From contig MEMB01000007.1 of the NCBI GenBank assembly GCA_001768735.1, positions 23,612 to 87,611 of the forward strand: 64,000 bases of DNA, given 5' to 3'. Below the pieces are notes generated by a model. The model had not been told where the DNA came from, did no database searches, and saw nothing but the letters and a program-made list of their open reading frames with translations. Position numbers and translations under genes: made by a program. Source of the stretch: Alphaproteobacteria bacterium GWF2_58_20. GTDB taxonomy: Bacteria > Pseudomonadota > Alphaproteobacteria > UBA1247. Positions 9 through 13,104 of the stretch are shown here, in pieces (position 1 is the stretch's first letter; every line of letters begins with the position of its first letter).

Positions 9-224
9 GTGTCGAAGGAAACTTTCCTGCGCCAGCAGGTGGCCCAGGCCGAGGCGGAACTTTCGCTGATCGACCAGGAAGGGCAGATTGTCGGTTACAT
101 GGCGCGTCTGGTGGCGCTTGATGCCATGGCGCTTTCGGAAGCCGTGGCGGGGGAAGACCTGCCGGAAAACCTTGAGGGGATGGATGGGCTGGCGGATGCC
201 GTGAGCCTGTTTGTGCCGGAATGA
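9..224 (+). CDS. small acidic hypothetical protein; first gene of a coupled operon (overlaps next ORF)
   Basis: ATG ORF of 71 aa, acidic, no recognisable motif. 3' end overlaps the next gene, which suggests coupling. Confidence 0.3.
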   Translation: MSKETFLRQQVAQAEAELSLIDQEGQIVGYMARLVALDAMALSEAVAGEDLPENLEGMDGLADAVSLFVPE

Positions 225-624
225 GATGGGGAAGAAAATGACAATGCGGAAAACCGTCCTGATGGCTTGCCTTGGAATAACGTTCCTGGCCAGTCCTGCC
301 TTTGCGGGCAGTGTGGAAAATCTTGAGCGTGAGCGGGCAGAGCTGGTGGCAACCATGCTGGATCCCGGCCTTTCGGCTGCCGAAAGGCAGGAGACGCTTG
401 CGGCGGGTGCGCGACGCCTGGTGGATTTTGAGCGCATGGTGCTGCGTGACCGTACCCTGCCTGGGCGTGAAACCCCGGCGGTGAAGATGGCTTTTGCCAA
501 TGATGACCTGACGTTCCTTGTGCTGGCTTCCGGCGAAAAAGGCTTGTGGATTGTCGATCACTGGCTGGACCATATGGGGCTCTCGAGCGCCTCGCTGGAA
601 ACCGCGCGCCGGGGGCGGAGATGA
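211..624 (+). CDS. secreted hypothetical protein (signal peptide)
   Basis: N-terminal signal peptide LMACLGITFLASPAFAGS. Its stop overlaps the next start (ATGA at 621-624). Confidence 0.45.
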   Translation: MCRNEMGKKMTMRKTVLMACLGITFLASPAFAGSVENLERERAELVATMLDPGLSAAERQETLAAGARRLVDFERMVLRDRTLPGRETPAVKMAFANDDLTFLVLASGEKGLWIVDHWLDHMGLSSASLETARRGRR

Positions 625-1142
625 AAGGCCTTCCGGGCTTTGCATCTTCCGGTCTTGCCTTGTCCATCTTGCGGGGGGGAAGCGCCCTTCTGGGAGGCGT
701 TGTCCTTGCCCTGGCGCTGGCCTCAGCGCTTTCCGGGCAGGGGCCGGATGCGGTGCTGCGTTGGGCGTTCGACATTCTGGGGGGTGGGTTCATTGTCCTT
801 TTGTTGACGTTGTCGCTGGTGGCGCTGACCGCATGGGCGCGTCCATCAGGGGCCGCCGATGCCCGCTGGTGGGCGGAAGCCGGCATGCAGGCCACAAATG
901 GCATTGCCGCCCTGGCGCTGACCTATACCCTGCTTGGCATCAGCCTTGGGATTGAAAGCCTGGCAGGCCAGCCGCTGGATGCCCATTCGGCCCCCGTCCT
1001 CATCATGGACCTCACACGCCGTTTCAGCATGGCTTTCATGACCACTGTCATTGGCTTGCCCTTGTCCACCTTGTTGCGGTCGATGCTGCTGGTGAGTGCC
1101 GCCCGCTCGAAACCTGTATCAAAAATGGGAGATCCCTCATGA
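621..1142 (+). CDS. polytopic membrane protein, distantly MotA/TolQ/ExbB-like
   Basis: Four hydrophobic helices. The C-terminal pair (LGISLGIESLAG ... FMTTVIGLPLSTLL) resembles the conserved channel helices of the MotA/TolQ/ExbB family. ATGA overlap at both gene ends. Confidence 0.4.
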   Translation: MKGLPGFASSGLALSILRGGSALLGGVVLALALASALSGQGPDAVLRWAFDILGGGFIVLLLTLSLVALTAWARPSGAADARWWAEAGMQATNGIAALALTYTLLGISLGIESLAGQPLDAHSAPVLIMDLTRRFSMAFMTTVIGLPLSTLLRSMLLVSAARSKPVSKMGDPS

Positions 1143-1795
1143 AATTCCTTGTCTTCAATCTCGCGGTCATCGCTGCTCTGGCCTATCTGGTGATGGCACA
1201 CGGGCCCGGATTTCCGGGGCTGGTGCAAACGGCGCAGGAGGCGGTTGCCGCTGTCCAGCCGTCCATGCCTGCCGGGGAAACGGCGGCCAAAAGGGAAAAC
1301 GATTCCCCCATGCCGGAGCAGGACGCGGAAGGGGAAGCATCCGGTTCCCGCATGGCGCGATTGGAAGAGGCCATGGCGTCTCTTGCCAGAACACAGCAGG
1401 AGCTTGCCGTGGCCATGGAAAAGCTGGCCCGGTTGCCTGAAGCCGCATCCTTTCCTGTTGAAATGCCTGCCCGTGTGGCGGATATGCCTCCCCCTGCCCT
1501 TGCCGGGGCGGACGTGGAAAACCCGGAAACTTCAATGGCTGAATCCTTGCCCGTGGGGTTGGACCTCTCCGGGCCGCGTTCCCTGCTGCCTTCTTCCGCG
1601 CAGCTTTCTCCCCCCGCGCTTCCCATGCTGATGGATGCCTTGCCTGTGTCGCCGGTGGTTGTTGCCGATGACATGGATTTTGGGTTTGCTGACAAGGAGG
1701 ATGCTCCGGGTCTTTCTGTCCGTGATCGGCAGGTGGCGCTGGGCGCGATGGCTGAAGACATGGAAATGCTTTACGCCCGCAAACTTGGGGAGTGA
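1139..1795 (+). CDS. bitopic membrane protein with coiled-coil and acidic low-complexity region
   Basis: N-terminal TM helix (FLVFNLAVIAALAYLVMA), then a coiled-coil-like and Pro/Ala/Glu-rich segment. Start overlaps the previous stop by 4 bp. Confidence 0.4.
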   Translation: MKFLVFNLAVIAALAYLVMAHGPGFPGLVQTAQEAVAAVQPSMPAGETAAKRENDSPMPEQDAEGEASGSRMARLEEAMASLARTQQELAVAMEKLARLPEAASFPVEMPARVADMPPPALAGADVENPETSMAESLPVGLDLSGPRSLLPSSAQLSPPALPMLMDALPVSPVVVADDMDFGFADKEDAPGLSVRDRQVALGAMAEDMEMLYARKLGE

Positions 1796-1801
1796 GGCGG
1801 C

Positions 1802-2783
1802 CATGGCAGGATGGCGCACGCCTGACAGGGTGTCGGTGGGTGTCTCCCTCCTGCTGGGGGGCATCGCCTGTGGCGCTTTGGTCCTGCAGGTTCCATCCCC
1901 TGAAAAAACGATGCCGGACGTGCCTGCAGAAAGGGAAATATTCCGGCCCGCGCCGCCCCTGCTTGCGCAGGAGGGGGTGCAAGCGGACGTGTTGCGCTTG
2001 CCTCCACCGCCGGAACGGAGCTTGCCACCGCCTGATGCTCCATCTGTCCTTTCTCCTGCGGTCTTTCCTGTGAAGGTTGCTGCGCCCCCCTTGCCAAAAG
2101 GGAAGGAGATTGCAAAACGGCGTCCGTCCGTCTTGCCTCCCCAAGAAAAGCCGGCATCCCCGCCTTCCCTGCCTGTCCATTCCCTTCCGCGTCCGGAAAG
2201 GAACATGAGGCCCGATCCGGCCCCTGTTTCACCGCCTGTTCCGGAGATCGACCTGGCCCGGACAGCGGCGCCCGAGGTGGTGTCCATGGCGGCGGAGGGA
2301 CGTGTCCTCCTGCGGTTGCTGGAACAGGATGCGGGGCCGGAGGTGGAGATTGCCTGGCCCGATGATGCTGGCGCGCGTGAACGGCTGTACCAGATGCTGG
2401 CCGGGCGGATGGGCATGCGGTCCGGTCTGCTCGATGTGACCACCGGAATTTTTTATGATGCCAAGGGAAGTGGCCCGCTTGACCTTGACCGTTACAGCCG
2501 GTTTGTCCGCTATCCGGAAGGGGCGGGAATTGTGGGCGAACAGCAAGCCTTGCGCATGGTCCGTGCGCAGGGGGGCGCGGGCATGGCCCAGCCTGTGCGG
2601 GTGTTTCCGCGTGCGGCGGATGCACTCCTGCTGGGGGGGCTTGCCCGTTTGGTGGGGAAAGGTTTCGGGCGGGCGCAGGTCTTGCGTGCCCGTTATCGTT
2701 TTTCACCGGAAGGGGTGCTGGTGGGGGATATTGTGGCTGATGGGCGTTCCGTGCCCGGGAATATCCGCCTCATCCGTCCATAA
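1802..2783 (+). CDS. TonB/TolA-like bitopic protein: TM anchor, long Pro-rich spacer, C-terminal globular domain
   Basis: Internal ATG at 1802 with a GGGGAG-like RBS. TM helix VSVGVSLLLGGIACGALVL. About 150 aa extremely Pro-rich (PPPPERSLPPPDAPS...PASPPSLPVHSLPRPE), then a ~200 aa C-terminal domain. Confidence 0.4.
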
Positions 2784-2836
2784 AACCGCATGAAGGGCCG
2801 GATGGTTTGGCCCGCATGGCCTTGAGGGAGGTTTTG

Positions 2837-3745
2837 ATGTCCTTGTCCAAACATGTGACCATTCTTGGCGTATTGCTGGCGCTTTCTGCACCTGCCCATG
2901 CCCAGCGCACGGCCTTGGTTGTGTTGTCTGGCCCGCAGGAAGAAGCGCTTGCGCGGGCGGAACGCATCCAGGCGGTTTTGCTGGATGAGCGGCCATTTGA
3001 CCAGGTGGATGTGAAACTCGATGTTGAACCGGCGGAGACGGGTGAGGTCCTTGCGGCTTTTCTTTCCGCGCCCGGAGAGTCCGATGATTTTCGCATGGCC
3101 CTTGTGCTGGCACCGGAAGCGGGGCTCTGTCAGGGGGATGATGTTGCGCCAGTGGTTTCGGCGGTTCCCTCCCTTGTGCTGGCACCGGAATGCCTTGTGG
3201 ATCGCATGGCCTTTCCCGCATCGCCCGCGGTGTATGACATGGATCCCAGCGGTCTTTCGCGCGACCTTTCCGGCGATCCGTGGTCGGGCGAACTTTTTGC
3301 TGGCGACATGGCCTTTCTTGCCATTCCTTTTGCGCAGGACATTCTTGCGCCGGAAGTGGAAGGGCTGCTGCTCCAGATGCTGGCTGCGGGCGGCGATGTC
3401 TCTCCGCTGGGCCTTTTGGAGATGTTCCGGTTGGGCCTTTCCGGGGATGGCAGTGATTTTACCCCTGTCCTTTATGCCACCCGCGATCTTGTCGCGCGCA
3501 CGGTGATCCTGTCCGGAAGCCCTGGAATCGGAGAAGATTTCCGGCAACGCAGACAGGTCTGGCCGCAGGTATTGTCCCTGGATGTCTATGCCGCGCCCAG
3601 TCTGGCAGAAGGGGCGGTAGCCCAGCTTCATGGAGGGTACAGGATAGAGCCCCTGCGCCGCGACCATAGTGGCCGCATGGTATATGTCCGTACCTTTTCC
3701 GGCCATTATGGCTGGGTGCGCGTGAGGGATCTTGGGCGTTCCTGA
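2837..3745 (+). CDS. secreted hypothetical protein
   Basis: ATG at 2837 preceded by GGGAGG. Signal peptide ILGVLLALSAPAHAQ. C-terminal segment SH3-like (GRMVYVRTFSGHYGWVRV). Confidence 0.45.
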   Translation: MSLSKHVTILGVLLALSAPAHAQRTALVVLSGPQEEALARAERIQAVLLDERPFDQVDVKLDVEPAETGEVLAAFLSAPGESDDFRMALVLAPEAGLCQGDDVAPVVSAVPSLVLAPECLVDRMAFPASPAVYDMDPSGLSRDLSGDPWSGELFAGDMAFLAIPFAQDILAPEVEGLLLQMLAAGGDVSPLGLLEMFRLGLSGDGSDFTPVLYATRDLVARTVILSGSPGIGEDFRQRRQVWPQVLSLDVYAAPSLAEGAVAQLHGGYRIEPLRRDHSGRMVYVRTFSGHYGWVRVRDLGRS

Positions 3746-3774
3746 CGGGGATTCATAATTCCCTTGTATGAAGG

Positions 3775-3812
3775 TATGAAATGGTCATATGCTGGTTTAT
3801 GACGGTTTCATA
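3775..3812. promoter_or_regulatory. two tandem inverted repeats TATGA-N5-TCATA upstream of the MarR gene; putative MarR operator
   Basis: tatgaAATGGtcata at 3775-3789 and tatgaCGGTTtcata at 3798-3812, 23 bp centre to centre, 20-55 bp upstream of the MarR start. Confidence 0.45.
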
Positions 3813-3831
3813 GCCATGACAGGGGGGAAAG

Positions 3832-4305
3832 ATGCAAGACCTGCTTGGAAGATATATTGGATTTGTGCTGAGCGATGTTGCGCGGTTGCTGAAGCATGAT
3901 TTTGACAGGTATGCCGCAGACCTTGGCGTGACCCGGGCGCAGTTCCGGGTTCTTGTTTGCCTGTGGTTTCAGGACGGGGTGCGGCAAAAGGAACTGGCCG
4001 ACATTCTGGAGATTTCCCCGATGACCCTTGCGCGCCTGCTGGACAGGCTGGAAACCTGGAAATGGGTTGAACGCAGGCCTGATCCTGGTGACCGCAGGGT
4101 GCGGCGGGTTCATCTCGTGGGCGATCATCCTGAATTGCGTGGCAAGATGCTCTTTTTTGCGGAAAACATCCAGGCCAAGGTTTTTGGCGGAATTTCCGAG
4201 ACGGAAAAGGAAAACATGTTTGATGTGCTTCAGCGCATGCGGGCCAATCTGGGAAATCCGGGCCTGATGCCGGACAGCATGTGTGGGGCGCGGCTTAGCG
4301 CCTGA
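3832..4305 (+). CDS. MarR family transcriptional regulator
   Basis: Winged-HTH MarR signature region (RAQFRVLVCLWFQDGVRQKELADILEISPMTLARLLDRLE ... DRRVRRVHLV). 157 aa. Confidence 0.8.
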   Translation: MQDLLGRYIGFVLSDVARLLKHDFDRYAADLGVTRAQFRVLVCLWFQDGVRQKELADILEISPMTLARLLDRLETWKWVERRPDPGDRRVRRVHLVGDHPELRGKMLFFAENIQAKVFGGISETEKENMFDVLQRMRANLGNPGLMPDSMCGARLSA

Positions 4306-5185
4306 GGAAAATGAAATCTCCACCATCATGCCCGGCTGCGGGAATGTTGGCATATTCAGGCTCTTGGCCTGCCGTGTCCATCCTGCCTGTGGCGGAGAGG
4401 TAGAGCTGGGTTCCGGTGAGAGGCCCACGGCCCTGCTGCCCGAGGGTTTCCAGAAGCGCTGAAGCAAAGACGGAATGTCCGCCCCGGCCATCGCTGACAG
4501 GTTCAAGGCCGCCAGAGGTGAGGGCAATGCGGGAGCGCTGGCGCAGTTTCTGCCCCAGGATTCCGGAAATGTCCGCAGGGTCATCTTTCACGGTCCGGGT
4601 CATGGTGCCCGCATAACAGCTATCCGAGATGACCAGGATCTTGCGGGCCGCACTCTGTTCCAGCAGGGCGGTAATGTCTGAAATGGAAATCCAGCTTTCC
4701 GGGGAATCCGCATGGGAATCGCGGGGCAGCCAGTAGCCTCCCCCGTGATCCCGTATGCCATGCCCCGCATAGTAGATGACCAGATTGTCGCTGGCTCCGG
4801 CGCTGGCGGAGAATTTCCGCAAGGCTGTCATCATCTCCTGCCGTCCGGGATCCGTAAGCAGGCGGGTTTCAAATCCATAATCCTTTTCCAGCTGTCGGGC
4901 CACCGCACGCGCATCGTTGCCGGCATTGGCCAGGCGCGGGACAGATGTGTAGGCATCAATGCCAATGGACAGGATGCGGAATGGCCCCAGCTGTTCCGGC
5001 GTCAGCGATGCCGACAGGTCAAAGGCCGGACGGGCGGCAAGGGTTCCATCTTCCCGGCCCGTCTCCCCCGTCTCCTGCCGTCCGCCGCTGCCCATCATGC
5101 CCCCAAGGCTGCCCCACTGGGCGTGCGCTGGCCATGCCACGGCCATCATGAGGAGCAAAAGCGGGACAAGTACGGGCTTTGACAT
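4295..5185 (-). CDS. secreted caspase-like cysteine peptidase (peptidase C14 / orthocaspase)
   Basis: Signal peptide LLLLMMAVAWPAHAQ. Caspase catalytic His (VIYYAGHGIRD) and Cys (ILVISDSCYAGTM) motifs are present. Convergent with MarR, 11 bp overlap. Confidence 0.75.
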   Translation of the reverse strand: MSKPVLVPLLLLMMAVAWPAHAQWGSLGGMMGSGGRQETGETGREDGTLAARPAFDLSASLTPEQLGPFRILSIGIDAYTSVPRLANAGNDARAVARQLEKDYGFETRLLTDPGRQEMMTALRKFSASAGASDNLVIYYAGHGIRDHGGGYWLPRDSHADSPESWISISDITALLEQSAARKILVISDSCYAGTMTRTVKDDPADISGILGQKLRQRSRIALTSGGLEPVSDGRGGHSVFASALLETLGQQGRGPLTGTQLYLSATGRMDTAGQEPEYANIPAAGHDGGDFIFLRR

Positions 5186-5205
5186 GATGCGCTTCCTTTC
5201 CGGCC

Positions 5206-6156
5206 TTATTTGCAGCCCGGTGTCCCCTTGATGTAGTCATTCAGGGTGCATTGTTTCTGGGGCGGCGTGGTTGGCTGGGTGGGCTGCACCGGCGGTGGTG
5301 TCGGTTTGTCCGGCTTGGTTGGCTTGTCGGGTTTTGTGGGTTTTTCGGGCGGGGGCGTGACGGTGGTGGTGCCGTTGTCCTGTCCAGCCTGTGAAACAGT
5401 CACCACATCCACTTCCACCTGCGGGGTCTGGACATAGGTCTGCCCCTGCTGGCTGACCCTGATGGGGGTCTTGGCCTGGCTCATGACGCCAATCCAGGTG
5501 GGGTTGTCGCGCGCGCCCTGTTCGTGCAGCGCGCCGAGGAAGTTTATGGTATAGCGGCCACCATTGGTATCGTCGCCCCAGGAGTATTCACCGGGGCTGG
5601 AACCGGAGGCGGCAATGAAGCCCTTGTAACCCAGGAACAGGGTACGGTAGCTGGAGGCCTTGGGCTGGCTGGCCCGCGGAATGGCCCGGTTGCGGCCCTC
5701 ATCGACAAAACTGTTGCAGGAATCGGACGTGGCGATGACGAGGCGCGCGCCCTTTGTCCGCAGCTTTGCCAGAATGTCGGAAAAATCCATGGGCTGGTCC
5801 TTGATGTACATCATGGGCCATTTGGTGGGGGTTTGCTTGGTGCGGTACCCGTGCCCGGAATAGTAGAAAAACAAGACATCGTCCTTGCCTGGACTGGCAT
5901 CGGCAATGGCGCGGGTGATGCCGGCGTTGGTCATCTGGCTTCCCACCAGCTCATTGATGTTGAGGGTCATGCCGGTGGCCTGCGCGATGTTGCGCAGTTC
6001 ATCCTTGATGTTGCCGGCATCAATAGCCACCGAAGTTCCAATGGAAGAGTCACTGGTGTCGGCGATGACGATGGCGTGCAGGCTGGCGGCGTGTGACATG
6101 CCGGACAGGCACAGGGCTACAAGCGCGGAAAGGAGGGGGCGAAGATGTCTGGTCAT
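5206..6156 (-). CDS. secreted caspase-like cysteine peptidase (C14) with C-terminal Pro/Thr-rich linker
   Basis: Signal peptide ALVALCLSGMSHAAS. His motif FFYYSGHGYRT and Cys motif LVIATSDSCNSFVD. C-terminal KPTKPDKPTKPDKPTPPPVQPTQPTTPP repeats. Confidence 0.75.
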   Translation of the reverse strand: MTRHLRPLLSALVALCLSGMSHAASLHAIVIADTSDSSIGTSVAIDAGNIKDELRNIAQATGMTLNINELVGSQMTNAGITRAIADASPGKDDVLFFYYSGHGYRTKQTPTKWPMMYIKDQPMDFSDILAKLRTKGARLVIATSDSCNSFVDEGRNRAIPRASQPKASSYRTLFLGYKGFIAASGSSPGEYSWGDDTNGGRYTINFLGALHEQGARDNPTWIGVMSQAKTPIRVSQQGQTYVQTPQVEVDVVTVSQAGQDNGTTTVTPPPEKPTKPDKPTKPDKPTPPPVQPTQPTTPPQKQCTLNDYIKGTPGCK

Positions 6157-6168
6157 GTTTAAAACCTG

Positions 6169-6660
6169 TCAGTTCTGGGGGAAAAGTTCATCAAGAAGGG
6201 ATTTCATGGTATCTGCGGCAGGATCAAAATCCTCGATGATCGAGCGGTCTTTGTCTTCAAAACGCCATAGGGCGCAGCCGGGCGCGACAAGGATGGAAAA
6301 GCTTTCCGCATTCCGCGTGAGGCGAAAGCCATATGTGGGCAGGAAAGGGCAGCGTTTGGAAGCGTCGAGGACATAGCTTGTTTCCGAAGATGCCATGAAG
6401 GCAAGCCGGTGGGCCTGTTCCGTGGAAAGGATGGGGCCGGCCTGCAAGACGGTGTGTTCCCCAATTTTCTGTGGGGCATTTTCGTCCATTTCGGCAGATA
6501 TCCTGAAACTTTCTATCCGGTCGGGCGCTTGCAGGATGCCGGAAATTTCCGGGCCAAGCAGCTTTGCGATGCTTGGCGAAAGGGCCGATGGCGCGCCCGC
6601 GCATCCCGGGAGCAGCATGCAGGAAACGAAAAGGCAGCAGAGGGAGGCATGTTTTTTCAT
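6169..6660 (-). CDS. lipoprotein, unknown function
   Basis: Start MKKHASLCCLFVSCMLLPGCAG, a lipobox-type signal. Within the same-strand gene string. Confidence 0.5.
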   Translation of the reverse strand: MKKHASLCCLFVSCMLLPGCAGAPSALSPSIAKLLGPEISGILQAPDRIESFRISAEMDENAPQKIGEHTVLQAGPILSTEQAHRLAFMASSETSYVLDASKRCPFLPTYGFRLTRNAESFSILVAPGCALWRFEDKDRSIIEDFDPAADTMKSLLDELFPQN

Positions 6661-6675
6661 GGGAGCATGAACCAC

Positions 6676-7266
6676 TTAACGGAATTTGATGCCATCGCCG
6701 CCCCGTGTTCCGGTGGCAGCGGGGGAAGCCTGCGGACGGCCCAGATTGGTGATTTCCACGCGGCGGTTGACGCCGGAGGCCGGATTTTCTGGATCCTTGA
6801 GTTTTTCGGATCCCCAGCCGACTGTGGTCAGGCGTTCGGGATCCATGTCAAACGTTTCCACAAGATAGGTCTTGACCGATATGGCGCGCGCCAGCGAGAG
6901 CCGCTTGTTCAGATCGGCCGGGCCTGTGGCGTCGGTGTGGCCGGCGATTTCGATTTTGGCGTTCGCAAGGGTTTCCGAGACCAGTGCCATTCCCAGCTCG
7001 CCCAGCTGGATGGTGGCATCCGGTGACAGTTCGGCCGAGCCGATGCGGAACCGGATGTCGAGATCAATCGCCTGCCGGATGTCCTGTCCGGGCCGGTTGA
7101 TGGGAGCGAGACTGCGGATGATGGTGTTGAGGTCGGCCACGCCCGGCTGGACATTGCGTGGGGTGGTGTCCGCCGGTGGGGTGCGGGTTTGCGTCAGGAA
7201 GCCTTGCGCGTGGGCCGCCGGGCTGGCCAGCAGGCACATCAGGGAAAAGGCAATCATGCGTTTCAT
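6676..7266 (-). CDS. OmpA-family peptidoglycan-binding protein
   Basis: Signal peptide MKRMIAFSLMCLLASPAAHAQG. OmpA C-terminal-like signature (FRIGSAELSP ... IEIAGHTDATGPADLNKRLSLARAISVKTYL ... NRRVEI). An alternative start at 7293 would give a 4-bp overlap with the upstream gene. Confidence 0.75.
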   Translation of the reverse strand: MKRMIAFSLMCLLASPAAHAQGFLTQTRTPPADTTPRNVQPGVADLNTIIRSLAPINRPGQDIRQAIDLDIRFRIGSAELSPDATIQLGELGMALVSETLANAKIEIAGHTDATGPADLNKRLSLARAISVKTYLVETFDMDPERLTTVGWGSEKLKDPENPASGVNRRVEITNLGRPQASPAATGTRGGDGIKFR

Positions 7267-7289
7267 GTCAGGTGTCCTTGTGCAAAGGG

Positions 7290-8630
7290 TCATGCGTCAT
7301 CGAACAGGTCTTCGGCTTCGTCGGGGGTGACGGTGCCGTCCTGCACGAGGGCGCGCTTTTTCTGTTCGTCGCTGGGCTGCGGAATCTTGTTTTCCTGCAT
7401 GTAGTCGCCCAGCATCGACATCCAGTTGCCGGCCTTTTCAATGTGCGAGGGCAGGCCGGTGAGTCCCAGGTCAAGGACGGTGCCCAGCTTGTCGGCATTC
7501 ATCAGCATTTCGGCAAGGTTGGGGCCCTTCCTGAACATTTTCTGGGCCATGTTGAACGCCTTGATGTCGGCATTGACGGCAAGGCCGACCCGGATCCACG
7601 AATTGACCATCTGCACGCCCCCCCTTTCAGCGGGAACCTGCGCAAGGTCCTCACGGCTGATGGTGGACTGGTCGATGACCGCAAAGGCCTTCTTGTAATC
7701 CTCGGAGGTGGCTGTGCCGGTTTCTCCGCCGCGCTTGAGCGATGCGGCCTGCGCCATGATCTGCTCGGCCAGTTCCTTGTTGCCGGTGGCCGCCTGCATG
7801 TTGGCCAGTGCCTTGAGCAGGTTGACCGTGCCGATGTTCATGTTGCGGATGAAGGCATCCGACTGGCCGCTGAAGGTCTGCGGAGCGCTGTCATCCTCGG
7901 TGAAGGCAGAAAACAGGGAGCCAAAGGCCAGGCCGTCATCTGCGGTGTTTGTGTCGCGGGCATCGTCCTGAGGGGCTGTCATGCTCCCCAGAAACGCCGC
8001 AAAGGGGTTGAAGTCACTGGAAGGGGCTGACGATCGCGATGGCATGGGCGCGTTGCGTCCGGTGCCCCTGCCGGATGTCATGGTGATGGGTTCGGATATA
8101 TGGAACTTGTCCTTGGGGGCCCAGCATTCGTTGGCGGAGATGCGTGTGCCACAATCTATCTGGTACCAGTCGCCCTGTTCCGCCACAATGTTTACGGCAT
8201 CGCCGCCGCGCAGGTCGCCTACACGTCCGCTGCCGGGCTTGTTCATCACCATCACGCTGCTGCGGGCCTTGCCGCGCAGGTTGATGTTTTTTGATGCCTG
8301 TATTTTTGGCTGGCTGAGGAGTTCACTGCTGATCCAGCCGGTTTTTCCGGAATCGAGGCAGTTGACCTGCGTCCAGCCCTTTTTCTGTCCAAGGACCGTG
8401 ACTCTCGCGCCAGCGGGAAGAATGGCAATGGCCGCATTTTCACGCCCCGGGCCGCTCCGCAGGTTGGAGGCCTTGGCAACGGTTGTGCCGGAGGCGGCAG
8501 TGCTGTTGCCAAAGTCCCCAAAGCTGGAAAGGGAGAACTGTTCATTCATTTCAGGCGTACAGGCCGCCAGAAAGCCAAGGGCGAGGAGGGCAAGAATGCG
8601 TTGCGTGTTTTTCATTGTCTGGAACCTCAC
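7290..8630 (-). CDS. lipoprotein with two bacterial SH3 (SH3b) domains and an unknown C-terminal domain
   Basis: Lipobox LALGFLAACT. Two SH3b-like segments (NLRSGPG ... VTVLGQKKGWTQV and NLRGKA ... DAVNIVAEQGDWYQI). 4-bp overlaps at both ends. Confidence 0.6.
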   Translation of the reverse strand: MRFQTMKNTQRILALLALGFLAACTPEMNEQFSLSSFGDFGNSTAASGTTVAKASNLRSGPGRENAAIAILPAGARVTVLGQKKGWTQVNCLDSGKTGWISSELLSQPKIQASKNINLRGKARSSVMVMNKPGSGRVGDLRGGDAVNIVAEQGDWYQIDCGTRISANECWAPKDKFHISEPITMTSGRGTGRNAPMPSRSSAPSSDFNPFAAFLGSMTAPQDDARDTNTADDGLAFGSLFSAFTEDDSAPQTFSGQSDAFIRNMNIGTVNLLKALANMQAATGNKELAEQIMAQAASLKRGGETGTATSEDYKKAFAVIDQSTISREDLAQVPAERGGVQMVNSWIRVGLAVNADIKAFNMAQKMFRKGPNLAEMLMNADKLGTVLDLGLTGLPSHIEKAGNWMSMLGDYMQENKIPQPSDEQKKRALVQDGTVTPDEAEDLFDDA

Positions 8631-9448
8631 AGGGCGTTGGCCTTGGCATAGGAGACAAGGCTGGTGTTGACTTTCTGCAGGAAACGCTGGGATGCCTCGG
8701 TGATGAGCCTGGTTTCCAGCTCGCGTTCAAGAATGTCGGGATTGGTTCCCGGAATGGAGGATGAAACAGAGACAACCTCGGAAGCAAGGGTTTTCTCCGT
8801 GGCGATATCCGTTTCAAGGAACAGAAGTTCAAAGGCGATGTCAAGTCCGCCTTCCTGTTTTTTTGTGAACTTGTTGTACTTGAAACCGACAAAATCCACG
8901 GCATTGACGGTAATGACAAAGCCGCGCGGCATGTTGGCCCTCGGGTCAAGGACAGTCAGGCTGTGGCCATAGGTTTCAAAATCGCGGCGCATGGTGGCAA
9001 TGAGCTTTTCATGCCGGGTGTCGCCGGGGGAACGGACCTGGAGGGAGAAGATTTCGTGCAGGCCGGTATCTTCCTTGATCATGCCCATGAGTTTGCGCAC
9101 ATCGGCGTCAATGGCGGCAAACTTGATCTCGGCGCTCACCACGCAGCGGAAGCCAATCACCTTTTTTTCCTTGCAGTTCATGTCGAAATCCGACGTGAAA
9201 TAGCGATCCCTTATGGTTTCGGGATCCCTGGCATACTTGGCCATGAAGCTGTCGCCAATGTCGCCAGCGGCCTGGTCGCCCGCTGCGGTTTCAATGGCCT
9301 GGACCAGAAGGTCCCTGAAGGCATTGTCGAGCGCCTGCTCTTCGGTTTTCCCGGTGGCAACGGTTTCCACCATTTCGGTCTTGCTTGTCTGTGCCAGGGC
9401 CGGAAAGGCGGAGGCCAGGATCATCAGGACGGCAAAAAAGCTTTTCAT
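8627..9448 (-). CDS. secreted hypothetical protein (273 aa)
   Basis: Signal peptide FFAVLMILASAFPALAQT. No motif recognised. Translationally coupled to the downstream gene. Confidence 0.5.
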   Translation of the reverse strand: MKSFFAVLMILASAFPALAQTSKTEMVETVATGKTEEQALDNAFRDLLVQAIETAAGDQAAGDIGDSFMAKYARDPETIRDRYFTSDFDMNCKEKKVIGFRCVVSAEIKFAAIDADVRKLMGMIKEDTGLHEIFSLQVRSPGDTRHEKLIATMRRDFETYGHSLTVLDPRANMPRGFVITVNAVDFVGFKYNKFTKKQEGGLDIAFELLFLETDIATEKTLASEVVSVSSSIPGTNPDILERELETRLITEASQRFLQKVNTSLVSYAKANAL

Positions 9449-9455
9449 GGGGACC

Positions 9456-10802
9456 TCAGCGGTTGGAGATGGGATCGTCGGCGATGATTTGCATCAGCGC
9501 CACAATTTTGGGGGCAAGGTCGTGTGCGGCGGCCCGAATGGCATCCATGGCGATTTCACGGGTGGTTGGGCGGATCACCCCCGTCACGACCTCAAACGCC
9601 TTGGCCCCTGAAGCGGTCGGCGTTTTGGCAGCCTTGTTCTCAATGGTCGTTGGCATCAGCTTGGGTTTTCCGCCAGGATTGGGGCGCTGGATGCGGGCCG
9701 CAAGGCCTGCGCTGAATTGCATCTGCCGTCCCAGCTTGTTTTCCGCCAGCACGGATGTGCCAGCCTTGGCGAGTCCTGCGGAAATGGTATAACCCAACAC
9801 CTGGCTTTTGCCTTTCATGCGCAGGGTTCCGGTTTCCTCAAGCGTGGAATCCACATAAAACCGCATCGGTTGTCCGTTGTCCATGCGGCCCATGCCCATG
9901 CGGTTGGCCAGCAGGCTGCCCACATTGGCCTGTGCCCATGGCGATGGCGGTGACATCAGGGCGATGCTGGAAAGGTTTTGCCGCCGCAATTCATCGGAAA
10001 CAAACTGGTGCAGGGTGTGCAGGAGTTCCAGTTTGAAGCGCTCGGTTTCCCAATTCCTGGCATCATCGCTTTCGGCACGGCCTTCGGCGCCGATGGCGCT
10101 TTCAACGAGCTGGCGGATTTCCGCAGGAGGGCCGGAGGACGGGAAATTGAAGGCGGTGAACTGAAAAACGGCATCCGCCGCATCCCGGTCCCATGTCCTG
10201 TCCGTGGCCACCCGGATGGCCAGCTCATGCAGGGTCTTTGCAAACAGGTCGCGGTAAGCAGTGGCAAGCTCGCTGCTGTTCATGGCGTGGTCGGTTACCA
10301 CGGACTGTTCGCCGACGAACAGTTTTGAGTAGATGGATTCCAGGCGGCGACGCTGGCTCATGGCCGCCTTGTCGGTAAAGATGTCCATGGTTAGCGCCAC
10401 GGAAAAGACGGTGAGGAACTGGCTTGGTGTGCCGGGGGCGGAGTAGGTCAGGGTTTCGTGTTGCGCGCGGGAAAGGTAAACGGCCACCGGATTGCCCTTC
10501 ATGGCCAAGGCGTCGGAGGCATCTGTCGGGGCCAGGACAAGATGCAGCTTTTTGACCAGATCCGTCTCCCGGGAAAGCAGGGATTGGGCCAAGGGAGTCA
10601 TTTCATCCCCGGCGAGTTCTCCGGCAACCTTGCTGACGGGCCGGACAAGGTATTTGGTCAGCTGGTTGTCGCGTCCCGGAGGCAGGTCAAAAAATGCCCC
10701 TGCGAAAAAGGTCTGTGAAATATCGGTGTTTCCGGCAGCGCGTGCCGAAAGGGGCAGGGCGAGGCTCAGGGCGAAGATCAGAGAGGCCAGACGATGTCTC
10801 AC
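9456..10802 (-). CDS. secreted hypothetical protein (448 aa), first gene of the operon
   Basis: Signal peptide LIFALSLALPLSARAAG. No motif recognised. Upstream intergenic region is divergent from the glycine-zipper lipoprotein gene. Confidence 0.5.
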   Translation of the reverse strand: MRHRLASLIFALSLALPLSARAAGNTDISQTFFAGAFFDLPPGRDNQLTKYLVRPVSKVAGELAGDEMTPLAQSLLSRETDLVKKLHLVLAPTDASDALAMKGNPVAVYLSRAQHETLTYSAPGTPSQFLTVFSVALTMDIFTDKAAMSQRRRLESIYSKLFVGEQSVVTDHAMNSSELATAYRDLFAKTLHELAIRVATDRTWDRDAADAVFQFTAFNFPSSGPPAEIRQLVESAIGAEGRAESDDARNWETERFKLELLHTLHQFVSDELRRQNLSSIALMSPPSPWAQANVGSLLANRMGMGRMDNGQPMRFYVDSTLEETGTLRMKGKSQVLGYTISAGLAKAGTSVLAENKLGRQMQFSAGLAARIQRPNPGGKPKLMPTTIENKAAKTPTASGAKAFEVVTGVIRPTTREIAMDAIRAAAHDLAPKIVALMQIIADDPISNR

Positions 10803-10934
10803 AAACAGTCTCCTTGGAAGATGGTCGCAGGTGTTTGTCCTCCCCCTTCATAACAGATGGAGAAAAAACTTTCACCCCCGTTCATATGCATGGATGAGGC
10901 TAAAAAGATCCGAGCGACAAAAAAAGAAGGAGAA

Positions 10935-11264
10935 ATGAAGATGACAAGGCATGATTTCAGGAAGGTTTCCATGGCTGTGGCGGCCTGCGCCCTGCTGGCA
11001 GGATGCGTGACCAGCGGCAACCAGCCCGGGAGCGCCATGGTTGGCGGCGTTCTGGGCGGGCTTGCCGGATCGCAGTTTGGTTCAGGAGAGGGACGGCTGG
11101 CAATGACCGCAGCCGGGGCCGCTCTCGGGGCTCTGGCCGGACAGTCTGCCGGGGAATCGCTTGACCGGGCGGATGCGGTTTATTATGGGCAGCAAGCCTA
11201 TCGCAATGAACGGCAGGACTACCGCTCCCACCACCATCCATCCAGGACATATCGGGCCTGGTAA
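10935..11264 (+). CDS. glycine-zipper outer-membrane lipoprotein (17-kDa antigen / SlyB-like)
   Basis: AAGGAGA RBS. Lipobox LLAGCVTSG. Gly-zipper GGVLGGLAGSQFGSGEG ... GAALGALAG. Confidence 0.65.
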   Translation: MKMTRHDFRKVSMAVAACALLAGCVTSGNQPGSAMVGGVLGGLAGSQFGSGEGRLAMTAAGAALGALAGQSAGESLDRADAVYYGQQAYRNERQDYRSHHHPSRTYRAW

Positions 11265-11370
11265 CAAAAAATGCGTCGGGGCTTGCCGAAAGACTCCGGC
11301 GCTGGCAGAATGAAGGGTATCCGCCACCATGGTGTGCGGATGCCCTTTTTGTTTTCACGGGATGGACATC

Positions 11371-11763
11371 ATGCTTGTCAGGATGCGTTTTTTCTTTTGT
11401 TGCGCGGTTGTTTTGGCGCTTTCGGCATGTGCGGTGCCGGATCAGGGTGCAGGCAGCATGGCGGGGTCTCCGATGGAAAATTCCGGGGGATCCGCGGTTT
11501 CGTTTCGTCATTATGCCATAGACTTTGTGGATTTTCGCGGCGATGAACTGGCCGAGGTTTCCTTCCGTCTTGAACAGCTCCCCGGTTATCGCAGCCTGCG
11601 CATTGCGGAGAGTACCGGCGCCACCTTGCGGATATGGTATGAAACCACCCTGCCTGCTCCGGTCCTGCGGAGCTTCATCAGCCGCATCATGACGTCCATG
11701 GGCCGCAATGTGAATATCCACATGGAAGGCGCTGATCATATCAGGGTGGAAACCCTTTATTAA
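11371..11763 (+). CDS. small lipoprotein, unknown function
   Basis: Signal/lipobox MRFFFCCAVVLALSACA. The start among the in-frame ATGs at 11329, 11371 and 11383 is uncertain. Confidence 0.45.
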   Translation: MLVRMRFFFCCAVVLALSACAVPDQGAGSMAGSPMENSGGSAVSFRHYAIDFVDFRGDELAEVSFRLEQLPGYRSLRIAESTGATLRIWYETTLPAPVLRSFISRIMTSMGRNVNIHMEGADHIRVETLY

Positions 11764-11778
11764 AGGAGAAGAACCGGC

Positions 11779-13104
11779 ATGAACGGGATCAGGCATTTGT
11801 GGCGACAGGGGTTTGCCTTGCTCCTGCTGGCGCTTGTCTGCCTTCCGGCGCAGGCCGCGCCTTTCGTGTCTGGGGTGCGTTTCGGCCAGCATCCCGACAA
11901 GTTGCGCATTGTTCTGGATGTGGGGGAAAAGGCCGGATTCCAGCCGGCCGTTTTTGAAGATCCGTGGCGGGTGGTTGTGTCTTTTGATGGCATGAAATCG
12001 GCCCACTTGCCGGCCACCCTTTCAGGGAAGGGGGCTTTGCCGGTGCTCCGCTATGGCGCGGATGAAAAAACCGACAGCCTGGTTTTTGAAACGCAAGGGC
12101 CAGTGCAAATCCTTGACAGTTTTTTCCTTCCCGGCGAAGGAGAAAAGTCTCCCCGCATTGTTCTGGACATTGCATCCCTTGCCAGCCTTTCCTCTGGAAA
12201 AAATGTCCTGTCTCCTGCCGCAAGGGGAGGGGAATCCACATCTTCGTCCCTTTCGCAATCCTCCGCGGGAGATGCCGCTGCGCTTTCGGCCATCATTGGC
12301 GGACTGGTGGATGGAGGAAAAGGCCAGGAGAAGACATCCCCGCCTGAACAGGAAGTGGTTCCTGCGCCTGCGGGTCAGGCCAGCATGCCTCCTCCTGCTC
12401 CGCGCGCGCGCAAGGTGGTGGTGCTGGATCCGGGGCATGGCGGACGCGATCCGGGCGCCATCGGAGCGGATGGGACATTTGAGAAAACCATTACGCTGGC
12501 CGTGGCGAAGTCCTTGCGGACGGAACTGGAGAAAAGCGGCAAATACAAGGTTCTTCTGACCCGCGAGGATGACCGGACGCTGCGCCTGTCAGACCGGGTG
12601 AAATTTGCCCGGAATGCCAAGGCCGACCTGTTCGTGTCGCTGCATGCCGATTCCATTGAGGCCGGACAGGCCTCCGGGGCTTCTTTTTATACCCTGTCCG
12701 ACAAGGCATCGGACGGGGCGACCGCGCGGCTGGTGGCCCGCGAAAATCGTGCCGACATCATTGCCGGGCTTGACCTGAGCGAGGAAAGCGCCGACGTGGC
12801 GGGCATCCTGATCGATCTTGCCATGCGCGAAACACAGAACCAGTCGCACCTGCTGTCGCGTCAGGTTGTGTCTGCCATGACGTCGGCGGGCATTACGCTG
12901 CTGGAAAACCCGCAACGTTCTGCGGGATTTGCGGTTCTCAAGGCGCCGGATGTGCCTTCGCTCCTGGTGGAAATGGGATATGTGTCCAGCCGCAAGGAAG
13001 TGGCGCTTTTAAAAAATCCCAAGCACCAGCACCGTCTGGCCGGGGCCCTGCACAACGGGCTTGATGGATATTTCTCCTGGCTGGAAGGGGTCAGTGGACG
13101 ATGA
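11779..13104 (+). CDS. amiC: N-acetylmuramoyl-L-alanine amidase with N-terminal AMIN domain
   Basis: Amidase_3 core (VVVLDPGHGGRDPGAIG ... ADLFVSLHADS) after a signal peptide and an AMIN-like domain. Confidence 0.85.
   Translation: MNGIRHLWRQGFALLLLALVCLPAQAAPFVSGVRFGQHPDKLRIVLDVGEKAGFQPAVFEDPWRVVVSFDGMKSAHLPATLSGKGALPVLRYGADEKTDSLVFETQGPVQILDSFFLPGEGEKSPRIVLDIASLASLSSGKNVLSPAARGGESTSSSLSQSSAGDAAALSAIIGGLVDGGKGQEKTSPPEQEVVPAPAGQASMPPPAPRARKVVVLDPGHGGRDPGAIGADGTFEKTITLAVAKSLRTELEKSGKYKVLLTREDDRTLRLSDRVKFARNAKADLFVSLHADSIEAGQASGASFYTLSDKASDGATARLVARENRADIIAGLDLSEESADVAGILIDLAMRETQNQSHLLSRQVVSAMTSAGITLLENPQRSAGFAVLKAPDVPSLLVEMGYVSSRKEVALLKNPKHQHRLAGALHNGLDGYFSWLEGVSGR

What the first reader, a model, noticed from the sequence alone, without database searches (positions are those of the whole stretch)
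4295..10802. Seven-gene operon of exported proteins built around two caspase-like (C14) peptidases, an OmpA-like and a double-SH3b lipoprotein: candidate envelope-localised orthocaspase system
Seven consecutive minus-strand genes (10802 to 4295) have short or 4-bp-overlapping junctions, and every product carries a signal peptide or lipobox. Two of them are caspase-fold peptidases with intact His/Cys dyads. Two carry peptidoglycan-binding modules (OmpA-C, 2x SH3b). Three (448 aa, 273 aa, 168 aa) have no recognisable domain. Bacterial orthocaspases are mostly cytoplasmic, multi-domain and poorly understood; a dedicated periplasmic, cell-wall-anchored caspase module with its own accessory proteins is not a described system as far as I know. 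It could be a regulated envelope proteolysis, cell-death or defence device.
Basis: partly seen in the sequence, partly recalled or inferred. Interest (0 to 1): 0.75.

Follow-up and report, generated by a model that had tools for sequence, protein, structure and literature searches.

The report
Rare exported envelope module with caspase-like peptidases
Seven back-to-back genes of an uncultured alphaproteobacterium encode exported proteins, and the part conserved elsewhere is three previously uncatalogued proteins, one of them with an outer-membrane-lipoprotein fold like CsgG or LptE, with two caspase-like proteases and cell-wall anchors as optional add-ons rather than the centre of the system.

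Summary
Seven tightly packed minus-strand genes (10802-4295) all start with signal-peptide or lipobox sequences. Two are Peptidase_C14 proteins with intact His/Cys dyads, one is OmpA-like, and one is a lipoprotein with two SH3b domains. Three have no Pfam or NCBIfam match.

Eleven related loci were examined for gene content. The conserved core in them is g448, g273 and the C-terminal helical domain of g446, in the same order wherever all three are in view. The caspases are not the core. C14 genes lie near this triad in 4 of 7 lineages and inside the operon in only 2.

A confident AlphaFold model of g448 (pLDDT 83) resembles the CsgG, LptE, PelC and FlgT lipoproteins that sit under the outer membrane. 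The triad is very rare: 2 of 185,579 species genomes.

The locus is also larger than reported. A diverging lipoprotein gene and g312 have relatives beside the triad elsewhere, and a gene fusion links g312 to the plus-strand operon on its left.

The most likely function is a scaffold tethered to outer membrane and peptidoglycan, with accessory periplasmic proteolysis. The mechanism is inferred. Exported C14 proteins with OmpA neighbours were already catalogued in 2012.

The parts
9456..10802 (-). g448: exported 448-aa protein and first gene of the operon. Founding member of an uncatalogued family (F448). Predicted to have two tandem alpha/beta domains of the CsgG/LptE/PelC/FlgT type.
8627..9448 (-). 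g273: exported 273-aa protein, second member of the conserved triad (F273 family). It has two invariant cysteines, C92 and C102.
   Evidence: It always follows the F448 gene in related loci. Alignment A3 shows the invariant cysteines. There is no Pfam match for any of 10 members and no PDB sequence match. Only 2 clusters appear in the word-indexed search.
7290..8630 (-). g446: lipoprotein (lipobox LAAC) with two SH3b domains (about residues 50-170, window about 8121-8483), a disordered linker, and a C-terminal helical domain F446C (residues 244-445, window 7296-7901). F446C is the third member of the triad.
   Evidence: SH3_3 matches in two stretches. The F446C domain occurs as a stand-alone lipoprotein or exported protein of 232-249 aa after the F273 gene in groups B and C.
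6676..7293 (-). g205: exported OmpA_C-like peptidoglycan-binding protein.
   Evidence: Pfam OmpA, E = 2.2e-18, covering profile positions 2-96 of 98. The GHTD...NKRLSLARA and NRRVEI motifs are visible in the sequence. A 51%-identical homologue lies next to the distant triad in L023.
6169..6675 (-). g168: small lipoprotein (LPGC lipobox). It is an orphan and is specific to this lineage.
   Evidence: No family match in any library. It is absent from the 83%-identical relative L018, where the OmpA and C14 genes are about 40 bp apart. Its cluster has a single member.
5206..6156 (-). g316: exported Peptidase_C14 protein with H102 (codon 5851-5853) and C147 (codon 5716-5718). It has a Pro/Thr/Lys-rich C-terminal tail.
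   Evidence: Pfam PF00656, E = 1.7e-13 against a cutoff of 21.4 bits. A homologue at 31-33% identity sits in the operon of L007.
4295..5185 (-). g296: exported Peptidase_C14 protein with H142 (codon 4760-4762) and C190 (codon 4616-4618). It is the last gene of the operon.
   Evidence: Pfam PF00656, E = 6.2e-21. The best PDB relative is GSU0716 (3bij), with the dyad motifs aligned. A homologue at 35% identity, C14 fused to TPR, lies near the triad in L023. The orthologue in L018 is intact apart from a run of N.
3832..4305 (+). MarR-family regulator, converging on g296 with an 11-bp overlap. It is the last gene of the plus-strand operon.
   Evidence: Pfam MarR, E = 8.8e-17. Its role in this locus is inferred from position only.
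2837..3745 (+). g312: exported protein of an uncatalogued family with a weak SH3-like C-terminus. It is a conserved neighbour of the triad.
   Evidence: 33% identity over 273 aa to the C-terminal part of the L023 544-aa lipoprotein. Its N-terminal domain is also found fused to an M23 peptidase beside the L007 triad. SH3_3 matches only weakly, E = 0.032.
226..2783 (+). Four genes of the plus-strand operon: a 132-aa exported protein (226-624), a 173-aa polytopic membrane protein (621-1142), a 218-aa protein with an N-terminal TM segment (1139-1795), and a 326-aa protein with an N-terminal TM segment and a Pro-rich region (1803-2783).
   Evidence: The gene calls are and the sequences. There is no Pfam match. 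The 132-aa protein, the off-window 190-aa protein and g312 map colinearly onto one L023 protein.
10840..10900 (-). Conserved block in the intergenic region upstream of g448. It is a candidate promoter or operator.
   Evidence: Alignment of the window, L012 and L018 shows a conserved core, TGAACGGGGGTGAAAGTTTTTT..CCATCTG.TAT.AA. The consensus promoter scan did not report it. Coordinates are approximate.
10941..11264 (+). Glycine-zipper lipoprotein of 107 aa, diverging from g448.
   Evidence: Pfam Rick_17kDa_Anti, E = 1.2e-7. It is conserved in the same position in L012. Its link to the system rests on position only.
11371..11763 (+). F130: lipoprotein of 130 aa. Its domain recurs as the C-terminal domain of accessory proteins, and as stand-alone lipoproteins, in triad loci of other lineages.
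   Evidence: The iterated profile gives E = 1.2e-31. The homology chain is window F130 to the L012 165-aa protein (1e-22), then to the C-terminus of the L009 296-aa protein and the L011/L016 128-129-aa lipoproteins (about 1e-10 to 1e-11).
11779..15539 (+). An AmiC-like N-acetylmuramoyl-L-alanine amidase (11779-13104) and a class A PBP with an OB domain (13101-15539). These are adjacent cell-wall enzymes whose functional link is possible but not shown.
   Evidence: Pfam Amidase_3 at 1.4e-45, and Transgly, PCB_OB and Transpeptidase. The L007 triad is also flanked by a class A PBP, which lacks the OB domain, and by M23 and SLT enzymes.

Best explanation
The seven genes form one operon that encodes an exported multiprotein module sitting between the outer membrane and the peptidoglycan.

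Its conserved core is a triad:
- g448, predicted to have two CsgG/LptE/PelC/FlgT-like alpha/beta domains.
- g273, whose two invariant cysteines suggest a disulfide bond.
- The helical C-terminal domain of g446.

By analogy with other proteins of this fold, the triad most likely assembles into an oligomeric scaffold or ring under the outer membrane. In this lineage the scaffold would be fixed to the outer membrane by the lipid anchor of g446. It would be fixed to the cell wall by the two SH3b domains of g446 and by the OmpA-like g205.

The two C14 peptidases keep their His/Cys dyads and are exported. They are optional, lineage-specific add-ons. They would cut scaffold components or client proteins in the periplasm, for maturation, turnover or release. 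They would not act as cytoplasmic cell-death executioners.

What is shown: gene order, domain families, export signals, purifying selection, conservation of the triad, recurrent but facultative linkage to C14, OmpA, SH3b, M23 and SLT genes, and the g448 fold.

What is inferred: that the proteins form a complex, that it oligomerises, where it sits, and what the peptidases cut.
For: - Tight junctions and export signals on all seven products.
- C14, OmpA and SH3_3 matches above the Pfam cutoffs, with the dyads present.
- dN/dS of 0.09 to 0.22 for six genes.
- The triad keeps the same order in all ten loci searched that hold enough sequence to show all three.
- g448 homologues in Desulfosarcina carry lipoboxes, and some distant relatives carry Tat-type signals.
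- Accessory genes in other triad loci score as CsgG above the Pfam cutoff, with weaker LpoB, FlgT_N, FlgT_C and DUF6844 matches.
- Peptidoglycan-related partners recur. SH3b is fused in group A and is a separate 96-98-aa gene in group B. M23 and SLT occur in L007. A CsgG-PG_binding_1 protein occurs in L016. An OmpA-like protein occurs in L023.
- C14 genes lie within 10 kb of the triad in 4 of 7 lineages: A, B, C (L016 only) and F (L023).
Against: - There is no direct evidence for a complex, for oligomerisation or for location. AF-multimer could not be run.
- g448 in this window has no lipobox.
- C14 genes are absent from most triad loci, so proteolysis cannot be essential to what the triad does.
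- The lineage count is small, many contigs are short, and I did not compute a background frequency for C14 genes.
- No substrate is identified.
Confidence: 0.55

Rival explanations
1. The locus is a regulator or adaptor of peptidoglycan synthases and hydrolases. In this reading the triad, anchored to the outer membrane, reaches the wall like LpoA, LpoB or NlpD. It would control the neighbouring class A PBP, amidase, M23 or SLT enzymes, and the C14 peptidases would tune the regulators or wall-bound proteins.
For: The window operon diverges from an Amidase_3 and PBP1A gene pair. The L007 triad, at 41% g448 identity, is flanked by a different class A PBP (670 aa, no OB domain), an M23 peptidase carrying the g312-type N-domain, and an SLT gene. 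SLT is also present in L013. SH3b, OmpA-like and PG_binding_1 modules recur. The fold class includes LpoB and the TolB N-terminal domain.
Against: PBP adjacency is seen in only two lineages, both probably alphaproteobacterial, so shared ancestry is not excluded. The Desulfosarcina, L019, L021 and L023 loci have no PBP or hydrolase neighbour. No LpoA or LpoB HMM matches any window protein.
Confidence: 0.2
2. The locus is a CsgG-like (type VIII-like) secretion or assembly channel. In this reading g448 oligomerises into an outer-membrane pore that exports an unknown substrate, with g273 and g446 as periplasmic and surface adaptors and the C14 peptidases as processing enzymes.
Against: No member of the F448 family matches PF03783. 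The window g448 is not a lipoprotein. No candidate cargo, whether amyloid subunit or repeat protein, is encoded in the locus. The same fold is used by non-pore proteins such as LptE, PelC and FlgT.
Confidence: 0.12
3. The locus is an envelope-located defence or regulated cell-death device, in which the caspase-like peptidases are triggered by envelope damage or phage attack.
For: g296 and g316 give weak matches to the PADLOC caspase model (E = 6.7e-13 and 6.4e-7). g296 matches NF047832, the EACC1-associated caspase type. One distant triad, L021, lies beside an MmeI-type restriction-modification gene, a resolvase and other island-like genes. Gene content is patchy: g168 and the plus-strand operon are missing from L018.
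Against: The NF047832 score of 81.7 bits is far below its 140-bit cutoff. No NTPase, sensor or effector domain typical of conflict systems is present. All products are exported. There is no relative on 72,556 plasmids or in IMG/VR. The core genes are under purifying selection in a stable chromosomal position between prfC and cell-wall genes.
Confidence: 0.08
4. The grouping is fortuitous: unrelated exported proteins that merely share a strand.
For: C14 genes are lacking in most triad loci. g168 is an orphan.
Against: The triad order is conserved down to about 25-30% identity. C14, OmpA, SH3b and g312-type genes recur in lineages A, B and F. SH3b is fused in A and separate in B. A gene fusion links the neighbouring operon.
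Confidence: 0.05

Closest known systems
CsgG (curli secretion channel), LptE, PelC and PqiC: outer-membrane lipoproteins of the CsgG/LptE-like alpha/beta fold
   Different: There is no sequence-level membership: no PF03783, LpoB or LptE HMM match for any of 29 family members. g448 has two tandem domains. It has no lipobox in this lineage. Its partners (g273 and F446C) and its C14, OmpA and SH3b add-ons have no counterpart in the curli, Lpt or Pel systems.
Vibrio flagellar H-ring and T-ring proteins: FlgT, FlgO, FlgP and the OmpA-like MotY
   Same: FlgT and an LPHT-ring chain are among the fold matches. Accessory proteins of other triad loci give weak FlgT_N and FlgT_C matches. Both combine a periplasmic ring scaffold with an OmpA-like wall binder.
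   Different: There are no flagellar genes in the locus. The FlgT matches are below the Pfam cutoffs. Peptidases are not part of the H-ring or T-ring.
Prokaryotic metacaspases or orthocaspases (Peptidase_C14), for example GSU0716 (PDB 3bij) and the survey in PMC3501461
   Same: The Pfam family, the His/Cys dyad and the D-x-C motif are shared. That survey already lists single-domain proteins with an N-terminal hydrophobic segment, OmpA genes in the operon, and multi-C14 operons in Alphaproteobacteria.
   Different: The studied orthocaspases are cytoplasmic cyanobacterial enzymes. Here both enzymes are exported and embedded in an operon with an uncatalogued triad. No function or substrate is known for any exported C14 protein in the papers I could search.
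Tol-Pal and LpoA/LpoB-type trans-envelope assemblies
   Same: Both have an OmpA-like wall binder, a fold related to the TolB N-terminal domain and LpoB, and neighbouring inner-membrane proteins including a Pro-rich protein with one TM segment. There is also genomic proximity to a PBP and an amidase.
   Different: No TolQ, TolR, TolA, TolB, LpoA or LpoB HMM matches. The 173-aa membrane protein looks like MotA/ExbB only by eye, and Pfam and PDB searches do not support that.

Membership tests
Peptidase_C14 (caspase, metacaspase, orthocaspase; Pfam PF00656) | HMM match above the family's gathering score | tested here: met
   g316 scores 51.3 bits and g296 scores 75.6 bits against a cutoff of 21.4.
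Peptidase_C14 (caspase, metacaspase, orthocaspase; Pfam PF00656) | Catalytic His and Cys in the conserved (Y/F)(S/A)GHG and D-x-C motifs | tested here: met
   g316 has H102 and C147. g296 has H142 and C190. They align with GSU0716, MALT1 and metacaspase-9 and with the C14 proteins of L007, L016 and L018.
Peptidase_C14 (caspase, metacaspase, orthocaspase; Pfam PF00656) | Peptidase activity, with Arg/Lys specificity as in metacaspases | not testable with these tools
   The Asp two residues before the Cys (SDSC) fits a basic S1 pocket, from general knowledge of metacaspase structures.
EACC1-associated caspase (NCBIfam NF047832) | Score above the curated cutoff of 140 bits | tested here: not met
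   g296 scores 81.7 bits and g316 scores 23 bits. No EACC1 partner is present, and the proteins are exported.
OmpA_C-like peptidoglycan-binding domain (PF00691) | HMM match above cutoff, with the conserved GHTD...N..LS..RA motif | tested here: met
   g205 scores 66.8 bits against a cutoff of 27.2, covering profile positions 2-96 of 98. The motif GHTDATGPADLNKRLSLARA is visible in the sequence. Peptidoglycan binding itself was not tested.
Bacterial SH3 (SH3_3, PF08239) | HMM match above cutoff | tested here: met
   g446 scores 63.6 bits against a cutoff of 27, in two stretches.
CsgG family (PF03783) and the curli-type secretion channel | Sequence membership by HMM | tested here: not met
CsgG family (PF03783) and the curli-type secretion channel | N-terminal lipidation and membrane-spanning hairpins that form an oligomeric barrel | tested here: inconclusive
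   The window g448 has a plain signal peptide, while the Desulfosarcina homologues have lipoboxes. Long hairpins are predicted, but I had no coordinates or multimer model to inspect.
Known anti-phage defence systems (PADLOC-DB 2.0) | Match of the gene set to a defined system | tested here: not met
   Only weak matches to the generic caspase model and to the MotB/ZorB OmpA region. g448, g273, g446 and g168 give nothing.
Tol-Pal, Ton and Mot-type energised envelope systems | MotA/TolQ/ExbB-family membrane protein and TolR, TolA or TonB partners detectable by HMM | tested here: not met
   No Pfam match at E up to 10 for the 173-, 218- and 326-aa proteins. No PDB sequence match for the 173-aa protein.

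The most novel reading that the evidence does not exclude
The locus from prfC to PBP1A would encode a previously unrecognised trans-envelope machine. Its parts would be inner-membrane proteins (173, 218 and 326 aa), a triad under the outer membrane with the one modelled member (g448) of CsgG/LptE-like fold, lipoprotein and peptidoglycan anchors, and exported caspase-family peptidases as built-in effectors. Such a machine would carry out regulated proteolysis at the cell wall, for example release or remodelling of links between outer membrane and wall, or controlled lysis. That would be the first assigned role for periplasmic C14 peptidases.
Probability: 0.2. Interest if true: 0.8.

Novelty: new variant of a known kind. 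Interest (0 to 1): 0.5.

Why it matters
Exported bacterial C14 peptidases have been counted in surveys, but I found no paper that assigns them a partner, a substrate or a role. This locus gives them a defined, partly conserved genetic context. That context is an uncatalogued three-protein core, one member of which is predicted to have an outer-membrane-lipoprotein fold, plus peptidoglycan anchors.

The conserved unit is the triad, and the caspases are add-ons.

The triad occurs without caspases in a cultured organism, Desulfosarcina variabilis Montpellier, so its basic function can be tested experimentally. The value is limited by rarity: 2 of 185,579 species genomes and about 40 protein clusters. 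There is also no functional evidence yet.

Tried and rejected
- **g312 N-domain as a degenerate caspase.** I suspected this by eye from ALLIG-like and APxC motifs. hhalign against a C14 alignment gave probability 0.1%, so I dropped it.
- **The 173-aa membrane protein as MotA/ExbB/TolQ-like.** There is no Pfam match at E up to 10 and no PDB match, so this is unsupported.
- **The C-terminal extension of F273 in L019 and L021 as an F130 domain.** hhalign and hmmsearch were negative.
- **Internal duplication of g448, and relatedness among the families.** hhalign found nothing significant among F448, F273, F296N and F446C. The one weak signal was F273 N-terminus against F373 N-terminus, E = 0.006.
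- **PDB sequence searches.** Profiles for F448, F273 and F446C found nothing.
- **Mobile or phage origin.** PADLOC and PHROGs gave nothing for the unknown proteins. Plasmid tblastn for g448 found nothing. The IMG/VR scan found nothing.
- **First g448 model.** The 10-sequence alignment gave pLDDT 55, which was too poor to use. I replaced it with the 29-sequence model.
- **AFDB Foldseek library.** It was not available.
- **Promoter and terminator scan.** Results were at background level.
- **Rfam scan of 1-20000.** No matches.
- **The apparent truncation of g296 in L018.** This is a run of N in the scaffold, not a pseudogene.

Full report
**Observation**

- g448: 9456-10802
- g273: 8627-9448
- g446: 7290-8630
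- g205: 6676-7293
- g168: 6169-6675
- g316: 5206-6156
- g296: 4295-5185

The junctions are +7, -4, -4, 0, +12 and +20 bp. Public gene callers chose slightly shorter starts for three of the genes (441, 196 and 163 aa), which turns the overlaps into gaps of 11 to 23 bp.

A simple N-terminal analysis shows a charged start and a hydrophobic core in all seven products. g446 (LAAC) and g168 (LPGC) have lipoboxes. SignalP and LipoP were not available, so export is inferred from sequence features.

**Domains**

Pfam places g316 (E = 1.7e-13) and g296 (E = 6.2e-21) in Peptidase_C14. It places g205 in OmpA (2.2e-18) and g446 in SH3_3 (two stretches, 1.9e-17). All four are above the gathering scores.

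The catalytic residues are H102 and C147 in g316 and H142 and C190 in g296. They lie in YSGHG/YAGHG and SDSC motifs. These align with GSU0716 (3bij), MALT1 and metacaspase-9 and with C14 proteins from related loci.

g448, g273 and g168 match nothing in Pfam, NCBIfam, PADLOC or PHROGs.

**Source and rarity**

The sequence is from an uncultured alphaproteobacterium. The records are GCA_003485165.1 'Rhodospirillaceae bacterium' and 'Alphaproteobacteria bacterium GWF2_58_20'. The six products found by exact look-up in the protein collection are all named 'hypothetical protein' in the NCBI records, g296 among them; the exact g316 sequence was not in the collection.

The unknown proteins are very rare:
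- g273 has 2 clusters and g448 has 10 clusters among 5.8 billion sequences in the word-indexed search.
- An exhaustive HMMER search with a g448 profile over 1.84 billion cluster representatives finds 40 proteins at E up to 1e-3.
- Among one genome for each of 185,579 species, only two have the g448 family: Desulfosarcina variabilis Montpellier and an uncultured Desulfosarcina.
- The JGI metagenome scan added four loci.

**What is conserved**

I compared ORFs of all fetched loci using iterated profiles. Three genes recur in the same order in all ten loci searched that hold enough sequence to show all three: a g448 homologue, a g273 homologue, and a protein homologous to the C-terminal 200 residues of g446 (F446C).

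The lineages are as follows. Percentages are g448 identity to the window.

| Lineage | Loci | g448 identity | Gene content |
|---|---|---|---|
| A | window, L018, L012 | 76-83% | triad, with 2 SH3b domains fused to F446C; OmpA; g168 (window only); two C14 |
| B | L007, L013 | about 41% | LuxR; triad; 322-330-aa protein; g316-type C14 (L007 only); separate 96-98-aa SH3b lipoprotein; SLT |
| C | L009/L010, L011, L016, L017 (Desulfosarcina) | about 50% | two accessory proteins of 373 and 296 aa; triad; 128-129-aa lipoprotein (L011, L016); no C14 in the operon |
| D | L019 | distant | triad with CsgG-family and DUF6844 proteins; no C14 |
| E | L021 | distant | triad with CsgG-family proteins; no C14 |
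| F | L023 | about 30% | see below |
| G | P0031 contig | about 27% | gene table only, with no DNA held; four further genes after the g448 homologue, one with a weak DUF6844 match; no C14 in view |

L012 holds only the diverging genes and the g448 homologue, and L023 ends inside the gene after the F273 homologue, so the full triad is not in view there.

L016 has a C14-FGE-sulfatase gene and two CsgG-domain genes about 3 to 8 kb downstream.

In L023 the genes that diverge from the triad are:
- a 544-aa lipoprotein
- a 242-aa protein related to a neighbour of the L007 triad
- a protein whose N-terminus resembles LPP20/FlgP lipoproteins by eye only, with no Pfam match
- a DUF4384 protein with a weak CsgG match at its N-terminus (E = 0.029)
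- a g296-type C14-TPR protein (35% identity)
- a g205-type OmpA protein (51% identity)

So the triad is the core. The C14 genes are near it in 4 of 7 lineages and inside the operon in 2. SH3b, OmpA, M23, SLT and PG_binding_1 modules recur around it. I did not compute a background frequency for C14 genes, and the number of independent lineages is small.

Six of the genes compared with L018 give dN/dS of 0.09 to 0.22. g168 is missing from L018. The apparent truncation of g296 in L018 is a scaffold gap.

**Structure of g448**

A model built from 10 sequences was poor, with pLDDT 55. With 29 diverse relatives the model reached pLDDT 82.9 and pTM 0.82. It shows two alpha/beta domains with long hairpins.

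Foldseek returns the same group plus FlgT. These are all periplasmic proteins attached to or working at the outer membrane, and many form rings. Identities are 5-12%. No member of the family matches the CsgG, LpoB or LptE HMMs. This is therefore fold-class similarity, not family membership.

Other observations:
- The g273 family has two invariant cysteines.
- Desulfosarcina homologues of g448 and F446C carry lipoboxes, and some distant g448 relatives have Tat-type signals.
- Accessory proteins of distant triad loci score as CsgG above the Pfam cutoff, with weaker LpoB, FlgT_N, FlgT_C and DUF6844 matches.

**The locus is larger than the finding**

- The lipoprotein gene at 11371-11763 (+) diverges from g448. 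It carries a domain that recurs as the C-terminal domain of the 296-, 322- and 373-aa accessory proteins and as the stand-alone 128-129-aa lipoproteins of groups B and C.
- On the other side, g312 (2837-3745, +) is 33% identical over 273 residues to the C-terminal part of the L023 544-aa lipoprotein. Its N-domain is fused to an M23 peptidase beside the L007 triad.
- The L023 protein is a colinear fusion of three families that are separate genes here: the 190-aa lipoprotein just off the left end of the window, the 132-aa protein (226-624), and g312.
- That fusion ties the plus-strand operon to the same island. The operon runs 190, 282, 132, 173 (polytopic), 218 (N-terminal TM), 326 (N-terminal TM plus Pro-rich region), g312, MarR.
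- L018 lacks this operon, so it is optional too.
- A conserved block upstream of g448, at about 10840-10900, may hold the operon's promoter or operator.

**Mechanism**

The best-supported reading is an exported complex whose triad forms a scaffold under the outer membrane. In this lineage g446's lipid anchor would tether it to the outer membrane. The SH3b pair and the OmpA-like g205 would tether it to peptidoglycan. The two C14 enzymes would act as accessory periplasmic peptidases on scaffold components or clients.

The gene content, fold, export signals and co-occurrence are shown. The assembly, its location and its substrates are inferred.

I considered four rival readings:
- **A regulator of cell-wall enzymes.** Class A PBPs of different types flank the triad in lineages A and B, together with amidase, M23 and SLT genes. 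The other lineages show no such link.
- **A CsgG-like secretion pore.** The top fold hit and the long hairpins favour it. There is no HMM membership, no lipobox here and no cargo gene.
- **A defence or cell-death device.** The only support is weak caspase matches and one island-like neighbourhood. There are no plasmid or viral relatives.
- **Chance juxtaposition.** This is contradicted by the recurrent gene sets.

**Comparison with what is known**

As enzymes, g316 and g296 are ordinary members of Peptidase_C14. The 2012 survey of prokaryotic caspase homologues (PMC3501461) already reported:
- N-terminal hydrophobic segments likely to be signal peptides
- cell-wall-binding domains
- OmpA in 14 metacaspase operons
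- multi-metacaspase operons in Alphaproteobacteria

A secreted Bradyrhizobium C14 protein with putative wall-binding YARHG domains is also described (PMC3355149). So exported, wall-associated C14 is catalogued. I found no paper that assigns such proteins a function.

What is new is the triad, which has no Pfam, NCBIfam or PDB sequence match, and its recurrent but facultative association with C14, OmpA and SH3b modules.

**Verdict**

The feature is real. It is best classed as a new variant built from known kinds of parts. Interest is moderate (0.5): the finding is rare, has no functional data and is found mostly in uncultured organisms. It does give exported caspase homologues a defined genetic context, and it points to a cultured organism in which the core can be studied.

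**Not done**

- Multimer modelling.
- SignalP and LipoP.
- Expression data.

Noticed in passing
window 15732-17903 and 17863-18108 (+): The anaerobic ribonucleotide reductase NrdD appears split. A 684-723-aa ORF is followed by an overlapping ORF of 61-81 aa in another frame. The short ORF carries an NRDD Pfam match and ends in a sequence that looks like the glycyl-radical C-terminus (RVMGYHRPVSEFNIGKKAEF). The same split is called in three independent assemblies. It could be a real two-piece enzyme or a programmed frameshift.
   Followed up: partly
window 1-3745 (+), and L002 19225-20657 just off the left end of the window: This is an operon of seven uncatalogued exported or membrane proteins of 190, 282, 132, 173, 218, 326 and 302 aa, ending in MarR. 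Three of them (190, 132 and g312) occur fused, in the same order, in one 544-aa lipoprotein next to a distant g448/g273 pair in L023. The closest relative, L018, lacks the whole operon.
   Followed up: partly
window 621-1142 (+): The 173-aa polytopic membrane protein has stretches (TLLGISLG, AFMTTVIGLPLS) that look like MotA/ExbB/TolQ helices by eye. The next two genes have a single TM segment, and one of them is Pro-rich like TonB or TolA. Pfam and PDB searches gave no support.
   Followed up: partly
window 6109-6675 (g168): g168 is an insertion, or a deletion in the other lineage, relative to the 83%-identical relative L018. In L018 the OmpA and C14 genes are about 40 bp apart. No homologue was found anywhere.
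   Followed up: partly
window 5206-5390 (C-terminus of g316): g316 ends in a Pro/Thr/Lys-rich tail with KPTKPD repeats, followed by a Cys-X12-Cys motif (QCTLNDYIKGTPGCK). The tails of its homologues in L018 and L007 are also disordered but differ in sequence.
   Followed up: no
L016 14360-19471: Downstream of a Desulfosarcina-type triad lie a CsgG-PG_binding_1 protein, a CsgG/LpoB-PEGA protein, two small unknown proteins and a C14-FGE-sulfatase protein on the other strand. This may be a separate module pairing C14 with CsgG-like proteins.
   Followed up: no
L021 1-9001 and L022: The most distant triad examined sits next to an MmeI-type restriction-modification gene, a DEAD-like helicase, T5orf172, VRR-NUC and a resolvase. 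This is an island-like context not seen at the other loci.
   Followed up: no
proteins P0018, P0020, P0024, P0026, P0035 (g448 family): Several distant g448 relatives start with twin-arginine (Tat-type) signal sequences. The window protein has a Sec-type signal, and the Desulfosarcina proteins have lipoboxes.
   Followed up: no
L023 1-2232: The L023 neighbourhood also holds a PP2C phosphatase, a Ser/Thr kinase-like protein with a C-terminal membrane segment and Pro-rich region, and a bPH_2 protein. These lie next to the OmpA and C14-TPR genes.
   Followed up: no
window 35414-35489 (+): tRNA-Thr (TGT) is the only tRNA gene in the 64-kb window.
   Followed up: no
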